From Mobula hypostoma (Eukaryota), in assembly GCF_963921235.1 (NCBI RefSeq), contig NC_086097.1:79920001-79984000 (forward strand): a stretch of 64,000 nucleotides of DNA, read 5' to 3'. The position numbers and the translations under genes were made by a program. Below are positions 20,695 to 21,321 of the stretch, in pieces; within the stretch, counting starts at the first letter, position 1; each line of letters starts with the position of its first letter. The notes below the pieces were generated by a model. The model worked only from the letters and a program-made list of their open reading frames with translations, was not told the origin of the DNA and did no database searches.

Positions 20695-21321
20695 CCACAC
20701 ACATCAAAGTTGCTGGTGAACACAGCAGGCCAGGCAGCATCTCAGTCGACGTTTCGGGCCGAGACCCTTCGTCAGGACTAACTGAAGGAAGAGCTAGTAA
20801 GAGATTTGAAAGTGGGAGGGGGAGGGGGAGATCCAAAATGATAGGAGAAGACAGGAGGGGGAGGGATGGAGCCAAGAGCTGGACAGTTGATTGGCAAAAG
20901 GGATATGAGAGGATCATGGGACAGGAGGCCCGGAGAAGGAAAAGGGGGGGGGGAAACCCAGAGGATGGGTAAGGGGTATAGTGAGAGGGACAGAGGGAGA
21001 AAAAGGAGAGAGAGAAAGAATGTGTGTATATAAATAAATAACGGATGGGGTACGAGGGGGAGGTGGGGCATTAGCAGAAGTTAGAGAAGTCGATGTTCAT
21101 GCCATCAGGTTGGAGGCTACCCAGACAGAATATAAGTTGTTGTTCCTCCAACCTGAATCAAATCTCTTACTAGCTCTCCCTTCAGTTAGTCCTGACGAAG
21201 GGTCTCGGCCCGAAAAGTCGACTGTACCTCTTCCTAGAGATGCTGCCTGGCCTGCTGCGTTCACCAGCAACGTTGATGTCTGTTGCTTGAATTTCCAGCA
21301 TCTGCAGAATTCCTCGTGTTT
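20695..21321. mobile_element. Penelope-like element end with an inverted partial copy; contains hammerhead motifs
   Basis: 14-bp TSD aaggaaaaccatat (20681-20694 and 21322-21335). The minus piece encodes the ORF end EEQQLIFCLGSLQPDGMNIDFSNFC*. The plus piece 21157-21321 repeats the terminus. Confidence 0.85.
20743..20780 (-). ncRNA. Minimal type I hammerhead ribozyme motif (PLE-type), core intact
   Basis: Minus strand agtc-CTGACGA-aGGGtctcggCCC-GAAA-cGTC-gact: helix I, core, helix II, palindromic ACGT helix III and a GUC cleavage triplet. Confidence 0.8.

What the first reader, a model, noticed from the sequence alone, without database searches (positions are those of the whole stretch)
20695..21321. 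Penelope-like insertion with hammerhead ribozyme motifs on both strands
Seen: a 14-bp TSD bounding a minus-strand ORF end plus terminus and an inverted second terminus. The minus copy (20743-20780) has an intact CUGACGA/GAAA/GUC core; the plus copy (about 21187-21224) reads GAAAAGTC. Known: PLE termini carry minimal type I hammerheads whose palindromic helix III favours dimeric cleavage. This is functional RNA structure that ORF-based annotation misses.
Basis: partly seen in the sequence, partly recalled or inferred. Interest (0 to 1): 0.7.

Follow-up and report, generated by a model that had tools for sequence, protein, structure and literature searches.

The report
Inverted Penelope retroelement stub with hammerheads
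This is a 627-base scrap of a very abundant jumping gene of the Penelope-like class whose hammerhead-motif end was laid down twice in mirror image, so the two small RNA-cutting motifs are real but likely inert here and of a kind already described.

Summary
20695-21321 lies between exact 14-bp duplications. It holds a minus-strand ORF end with a Neptune/Naiad-type GIY-YIG C-terminal motif, its 3' repeat, and an inverted second copy carrying a 36-38-nt tail: the published Penelope-like insertion unit. Two more inverted insertions lie in the window, and 61,000-160,000 contigs per DNA run match the family.

The minus motif meets every feature of the published minimal hammerhead consensus. The plus motif has AAGU where 82-94% of family depth has palindromic ACGU. 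Rfam gives no hit.

'Functional RNA on both strands' is not supported here. It is one motif duplicated by inversion. The copies are antisense to each other, cannot form a cis dimer, and any read-through RNA is predicted to bury the motif in a ~115-bp duplex. Cleavage and expression were not tested.

Opposite-strand pairs 100-700 bp apart are already in print (PMC4209133). This scan noted the same family and architecture repeatedly in this and other genomes. Ordinary; the one residual point is that neither arm can be a full copy of the other, which suggests twin priming.

The parts
20681..20694 (.). left target-site duplication (14 bp, 71% AT)
20695..21156 (-). sense arm (A): 5'-truncated 3' end of the element = ORF end + 3' repeat (pLTR part), ending without the tail
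21071..21156 (-). last ~27 codons and stop of the ORF; E-x-x-L-I-x-x-L-G-S-L-x-P-x-G-M-N register as in Neptune/Naiad GIY-YIG C-termini
   Evidence: versus Fig. S2 of PMC8557442, compared by eye; frame continues in other family copies (table 7); no Pfam or PDB hit
20810..21070 (-). pyrimidine-rich 3' untranslated part of the repeat
   Evidence: family-wide depth
20743..20780 (-). minimal type I hammerhead motif, copy A, consensus-intact (helix I 5 bp, CUGACGA + extra A, helix II 4 bp, GAAA-C-G-U-C; predicted cut between 20748 and 20747)
21157..21157 (.). inversion junction: one base that matches neither the ORF continuation nor the arm continuation of the family; no microhomology seen
   Evidence: (loose ends at 21156 and 21158)
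21158..21321 (+). inverted arm (B): 5'-truncated pLTR copy with tail
21187..21224 (+). minimal hammerhead motif, copy B; position 15.2 (21216) is A, so helix III reads AAGU and is not self-complementary
   Evidence: family majority C in 82-94% of depth
21284..21321 (+). 36-38-nt 'tail' present on this arm only
   Evidence: recurrent family end near 21321 (table 7)
21322..21335 (.). right target-site duplication (14 bp)
   Evidence: junction contig in X1 and X5 (table 8)

Best explanation
This is a truncated, likely dead-on-arrival insertion of an endonuclease-bearing Penelope-like retrotransposon (likely Neptune-type) whose hammerhead-bearing terminal repeat is present twice, head to head, between 14-bp target duplications. 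Shown: the duplications, two unequal inverted arms, a tail on one arm only, an ORF end, one consensus-intact and one mutated minimal hammerhead motif, and membership of a very high-copy family. Inferred: the element's GIY-YIG/RT protein nicked both strands 14 nt apart at an AT-rich site. Each nick likely primed its own cDNA, one from the distal RT start (tailed arm, 164 nt) and one from the proximal start (tail-less arm, 462 nt), and the two aborted cDNAs were joined by repair. The hammerhead would have acted, if at all, on tandem transcripts of the parent element as a dimer or with protein help. At this locus both motifs are predicted to be locked in a long duplex and so are passengers.
For: TSD and arms. 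The same layout, tailed plus arm and tail-less or shorter minus arm with a TSD, recurs at 47997-48215 (13-bp TSD) and in an older form at 49283-49561 (8 bp exact); a solo tailed copy at 62357-62503 has a 16-bp TSD with one mismatch. The published PLE unit is an inverted 5'-truncated pLTR, an optional 30-40-bp tail at one end, and a TSD (PMC3846280; PMC8557442). ORF end fits the Neptune/Naiad EN C-terminal register, and other copies continue the frame past 21156 (114-659 loose-end records per run, agreement 0.62-0.69). Family ends cluster at 21321 with heterogeneous T/A-rich flanks (93-660 records per run, agreement 0.41-0.43). Motif A fits the published min-HHR consensus. An Anolis PLE protein cuts and extends both strands, has two RT start sites that bound the tail, and is predicted dimeric (PMC11167929). 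Arm A has 348 nt absent from B and B has the tail absent from A, so neither is a full copy of the other. Sequestration.
Against: No full-length element or RT domain was linked to this family by my own search: the 28-aa ORF end has no Pfam or PDB hit, and four DNA-pattern scans of viral, metagenome and prokaryote collections were empty. Clade assignment therefore rests on a by-eye motif match. Rfam has no hit. No compensatory changes among 6 window copies. The tail-less end did not appear among the loose ends shown (2351 rows not shown). No empty allele was seen. Twin priming is my inference: PMC3846280 favours self-priming on an antisense template, and PMC8557442 attributes the tail to EN-mediated resolution.
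Confidence: 0.85

Rival explanations
1. Same element, different route to the inversion: one cDNA or an antisense RNA folds back and self-primes, and endonuclease or repair trimming later removes the tail from one arm.
For: PMC3846280 proposes self-priming from palindromes at inverted junctions. The 48-kb insertion has a near-perfect palindromic junction at a hairpin that the sequence just upstream of helix I can form with the core.
Against: In 20695-21321 the junction is not palindromic: 348 nt separate the arms, each arm has sequence the other lacks, and one unmatched base sits at the junction.
Confidence: 0.3
2. The locus yields a functional self-cleaving RNA on one or both strands, for example copy A cleaving in trans with another family transcript.
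For: Copy A is consensus-intact. In isolation helices I and II form with P about 0.8-1.0. Family transcripts could supply a partner.
Against: The antisense arm lies upstream on both strands. Even without it, 8 or more nt of native upstream sequence drop helix I probability from 0.99 to 0.01-0.22. Copy B has lost the palindrome. Published min-HHR monomers are inactive and dimers weak; the Anolis one needs protein. Arms differ by 4.3%, as expected of unconstrained decay.
Confidence: 0.05
3. A non-autonomous element with terminal inverted repeats (MITE-like or retrozyme-like) that moves as a fixed unit.
For: Inverted termini and a TSD; non-LTR retrozymes are reported as PLE derivatives (10.64898/2026.07.22.740005).
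Against: The three inverted insertions in the window have different interiors, junctions and TSD lengths. The arms are unequal. Retrozymes are defined as tandem direct repeats. Loose ends at 21156 mostly continue the ORF, not this junction.
Confidence: 0.04
4. Assembly artefact (chimeric or fold-back read).
For: No single short-read contig spans the whole stretch.
Against: Exact TSD; arms differ by 5 substitutions and a deletion; the right junction is recovered identically under two organism labels.
Confidence: 0.01

Closest known systems
Insertion unit of canonical EN+ Penelope-like elements (inverted 5'-truncated pLTR, one-sided 30-40-bp tail, TSD): Arkhipova et al. 2013 PMC3846280 and Craig et al. 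2021 PMC8557442 (passages read)
   Same: Head-to-head inverted pLTR copy, tail on one arm only, TSD, strong 5' truncation, C-terminal EN end.
   Different: Only 627 bp; TSD 14 bp versus the 8-10 bp in the rotifer passages seen; junction not palindromic; no RT present.
min-HHR of metazoan PLEs: Cervera and De la Pena 2014 PMC4209133 (text parts 1-2 of 4, supplement file 2 part 2 of 3 read)
   Same: CUGANGAH core with the extra nucleotide, G10.1-C11.1, GAAA-C-G-U-C palindromic helix III, helix I 5 bp. Opposite-strand pairs 100-700 bp apart were already reported there.
   Different: Helix II is short (4 bp, nearer the coral Neptune row than the 6-8 bp fish rows). No cartilaginous-fish row in the part read (3 name searches of file 2 were empty; file 1 could not be searched). 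Copy B breaks the palindrome.
PAc (Poseidon of Anolis carolinensis): Frangieh et al. 2024 PMC11167929 (parts 1-2 of 4 read)
   Same: Tail downstream of the hammerhead, AT-rich target, two distinct element ends.
   Different: PAc is Penelope/Poseidon clade with its ORF starting in helix II. Here the EN C-terminus looks Neptune-like, and the region of the two ends is GU-rich on the sense strand, not AC-rich.
Non-LTR retrozymes (10.64898/2026.07.22.740005, part 1 of 5 and passages read)
   Same: Type I hammerhead of PLE origin in vertebrate repeats.
   Different: Retrozymes are tandem direct repeats of two or more hammerhead units; this is an inverted pair with an ORF remnant.

Membership tests
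EN+ Penelope-like element | pLTR, direct or inverted, from an adjacent 5'-truncated copy | tested here: met
EN+ Penelope-like element | optional 30-40-bp tail at one end | tested here: met
   36-38 nt on arm B only; also at 48 kb; family end at 21321
EN+ Penelope-like element | target-site duplication | tested here: met
   14 bp exact
EN+ Penelope-like element | C-terminal GIY-YIG endonuclease | tested here: inconclusive
   only the last ~27 aa are present; they match the conserved E...G-L/M-N register of Fig. S2 by eye; no Pfam or PDB hit
EN+ Penelope-like element | telomerase-related RT in the full-length element | not testable with these tools
   no genome held; no related locus retrieved
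Neptune clade | CxxC linker between RT and EN; RT phylogeny | not testable with these tools
   region absent; only the C-terminal spacing favours Neptune/Naiad over Penelope/Poseidon
min-HHR (copy A) | CUGANGAH ... GAAAN palindrome NUH, G10.1-C11.1, helices I and II | tested here: met
min-HHR (copy B) | palindromic 15.2-16.2 | tested here: not met
   AAGU; 2 of 4 pairs lost in a homodimer; minority state in the family
min-HHR | covariation in helices I and II | tested here: inconclusive
   6 related copies, 87% of cells paired versus 11-43% for slid controls, 0 compensatory changes, no excess over shuffles
min-HHR | self-cleavage after NUH as a dimer | not testable with these tools
   needs bench assay
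Rfam hammerhead families | covariance-model score | tested here: not met
   0 hits
non-LTR retrozyme | tandem direct repeat with two or more hammerhead units | tested here: not met
   copies are inverted; definition

The most novel reading that the evidence does not exclude
Inverted Penelope insertions are made by twin priming: a dimeric RT-EN primes both nicks, one at each of the two RT start sites, which fixes 'tail on one arm only'. In addition, a 9-nt anti-core sequence just upstream of helix I is a built-in off switch for this family's hammerhead and also seeds fold-back junctions.
Probability: 0.3. Interest if true: 0.35.

Novelty: new member of a known kind. Interest (0 to 1): 0.1.

Why it matters
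Little as a single locus: it is one decayed copy of a very abundant family, and both the architecture and the motif are published. It is a caution that 'ribozymes on both strands' can be a by-product of inversion and is predicted to silence itself. Collectively such stubs record where PLE reverse transcription starts and stops, so a genome-wide census could decide between twin priming and fold-back, an open step of the PLE cycle.

Tried and rejected
Rfam, gathering and E<=10: nothing. No whole genome held. Pfam on 30 ORFs: no hit for the 28-aa ORF end and no GIY-YIG anywhere in those 30. PDB: none. The peptide was too short for a related-locus search. DNA patterns in viral, metagenome and prokaryote genome contigs: 0 matches each, so no full-length element was obtained. 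Sequencing runs: no RNA holder listed; run X16 is only guessed to be RNA, so nothing is claimed on expression. Flank without cover in X9 and X16 is not read as absence. No empty allele appeared among the rows shown. Covariation: none. Model R1 was built from 6 window copies and matches them by construction; it added 2 non-training hits at E<1e-4 (48045-48100, 23769-23825) and 2 weak ones. The first null for the TSD contained one 14-mer in 3000 draws, explained by the site itself once tested exhaustively. Lunse et al. (PMC5785218) is not held; it is known to me only through a review's passages (PMC6765202). PMC12602865 had none of four terms. Literature searches: 'Penelope + twin priming + inverted' gave 2 unrelated titles, listing only; 'Penelope + stingray + genome + transposable elements' gave 0; 'Penelope-like/shark/Neptune/GIY-YIG' listed 7 of 9 papers, none with 'shark'. 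Earlier findings by sequence: none. Host gene context (intron or intergenic) was not determined.

Full report
Observation. The sequence shows AAGGAAAACCATAT at 20681-20694 and 21322-21335, bounding 627 bp. An exhaustive scan of the window at spacing 641+-12 finds no other exact repeat longer than 11 nt. Inside are two inverted arms: 20695-20809 and 21158-21285. They differ by 5 substitutions in 115 aligned nt and by a 13-nt deletion in the minus arm just after helix I. The plus arm runs 36-38 nt further, to 21321. Between the arms lie a pyrimidine-rich stretch and the end of a minus-strand ORF, stop at 21073-21071. A descriptor gave 3 hits in the window against 0 in 25 shuffled window equivalents.

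The family. The window is a repeat-rich animal-type sequence with many RT remnants: 8 of 30 ORFs scanned hit RVT_1. Related termini occur at 47997-48215 (inverted pair, 13-bp TSD, tail on the plus arm only), 49283-49561 (older inverted pair, 8-bp exact TSD), 62357-62503 (solo tailed copy, 16-bp TSD with one mismatch) and 23769-23825 (decayed). Laying four public runs on 20812-21440 placed 160,486, 101,433 and 61,319 contigs from the three DNA or unlabelled runs, and 12,833 from a run guessed to be RNA. Summed depth over the element is 10^5-10^7 in X1 against 13.6 on the unique flank; the tool warns this is no copy number. Loose ends at 21156 (659, 625, 640, 114 records) give a consensus that, read by eye, continues the frame for nine more sense codons, so this copy is 5'-truncated there. 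Loose ends at 21321 (626, 660, 347, 93 records; agreement 0.41-0.43, T/A-rich) show that the tail end is a recurrent insertion boundary. The tail-less end was not among the rows shown (2351 hidden). A 151-nt contig covering 21300-21440 without a difference is present in X1 and X5 (two organism labels; X1 may be the source sample), so the right junction is not an assembly artefact and may predate their split. No empty allele was seen. That the host is a cartilaginous fish is my recollection of such repeats and the wording of earlier AI notes; I did not test it.

The ORF end. FRLEEQQLIFCLGSLQPDGMNIDFSNFC (the first residue is altered by the junction) has no Pfam or PDB match. By eye it follows the conserved E...G-L-N register at the end of the GIY-YIG alignment in Fig. 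S2 of PMC8557442: Neptune1_Nv EATLIARAGTLEPGGLN, Neptune-1_Ac ETYWIFRLRTEHPQGLN. Penelope/Poseidon rows are shorter between E and N. The family majority at 21127 (58-81% of depth) makes the Cys an Arg, giving IFRL as in Neptune-1_Ac. With its C-terminal position this favours Neptune, but no RT was obtained, so the clade is likely, not shown.

The hammerhead motifs. Copy A reads UAGUC CUGACGAA GGGU CUCG GCCC GAAA C G U C GACUG. It meets the published consensus CUGANGAH G...C GAAAN-palindrome-NUH (PMC4209133 Fig. S3). Isolated, helices I and II form with probabilities 0.8-1.0. Copy B has A at 15.2. The family has C in 85, 85, 82 and 94% of depth, so this is a minority, probably private change, and it removes 2 of the 4 helix III pairs of a homodimer. 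Rfam has no match, and 6 window copies show no compensatory change. Published min-HHR monomers did not cleave and dimers cleaved weakly. The Anolis PLE hammerhead cleaved only with protein and was dispensable for insertion in vitro.

Why 'both strands' does not mean two working ribozymes. The second motif is the same repeat laid down inverted. Dual motifs on opposite strands 100-700 bp apart were already reported. A transcript of either strand contains one motif and, upstream of it, its antisense. Folding gives 0.95 (+) and 0.97 (-) mean probability that the motif pairs with that arm, and 0.0 for helices I and II even in a transcript stopped 5 nt after the motif; the arm duplex is about -219 kcal/mol. 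Without the arm, native upstream sequence still competes: helix I falls from 0.99 to 0.22 with 8 nt and to 0.01 with 15 nt. These are equilibrium predictions, not assays. No RNA holder was listed, so expression is unknown.

Mechanism. Inverted pLTR, one-sided 30-40-bp tail and TSD are the described PLE insertion unit (passages of PMC3846280 and PMC8557442). PMC11167929 shows a PLE protein that nicks and extends both strands at AT-rich DNA and starts RT at two sites bounding the tail. Here arm A holds 348 nt that B lacks and B holds the tail that A lacks, so neither arm is a complete copy of the other. The simplest reading is two priming events, one per nick and one per start site, joined at 21157 where one base matches neither side. 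This is inference from one locus, with the same tail asymmetry at 48 kb. The 48-kb junction is palindromic and fits the self-priming model of PMC3846280 at least as well, so both routes stay open. A search for Penelope with twin priming and inverted returned 2 unrelated titles; subscription papers and one supplement file were not visible.

Prior notes. The scan recorded this family, the motif and the two-armed one-tailed layout repeatedly in this genome and others. These are unchecked AI notes; my reading was written before seeing them and my score rests on the tests above.

Verdict. Real, correctly identified as to class, ordinary. The functional claim for this locus is not supported. Interest 0.1; new member of a known kind.

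Noticed in passing
window 47997-48215: Second inverted insertion of the same family: 13-bp TSD (47984-47996 / 48216-48228), tail on the plus arm only, near-palindromic junction inside helix I; plus motif has ACAU, minus motif is cut within the core.
   Followed up: yes
window 49283-49561: Older, decayed inverted insertion of a related subfamily, 8-bp exact TSD (about 11 with one mismatch).
   Followed up: partly
window 62357-62503 (-): Solo tailed copy, 16-bp TSD with one mismatch, starting about 12 nt upstream of helix I; helix II damaged.
   Followed up: partly
window 23769-23825 (-): Very decayed hammerhead-type terminus found by the custom model, E 2.4e-5.
   Followed up: no
window 20781-20789 (-) and 21178-21186 (+): The nucleotides just upstream of helix I are complementary to the core CUGACGAAG and are predicted to out-compete the hammerhead fold. 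The same stretch also resembles a 3' splice site (pyrimidine run then AG); in D. virilis Penelope an intron ends at helix I. Untested.
   Followed up: partly
window 21188: In run X5, 248 contigs leave the reference just before the AGUC of helix I with heterogeneous sequence (agreement 0.35): either a preferred 5' end of short copies or other subfamilies.
   Followed up: no
window 20039-20613: About 575-bp stretch starting TG and ending CA with an AATAAA near its end, immediately left of the insertion; looks like a solo LTR, not verified.
   Followed up: no
window 21434-22645 (-): 403-aa open frame of a LINE-type reverse transcriptase 100 bp right of the insertion, RVT_1 E 4.7e-24.
   Followed up: no
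window 32700-33242 (-) and 34747-35172 (+): Gag-like fragment (DUF4939, Retrotrans_gag) and a DDE_3 transposase fragment.
   Followed up: no
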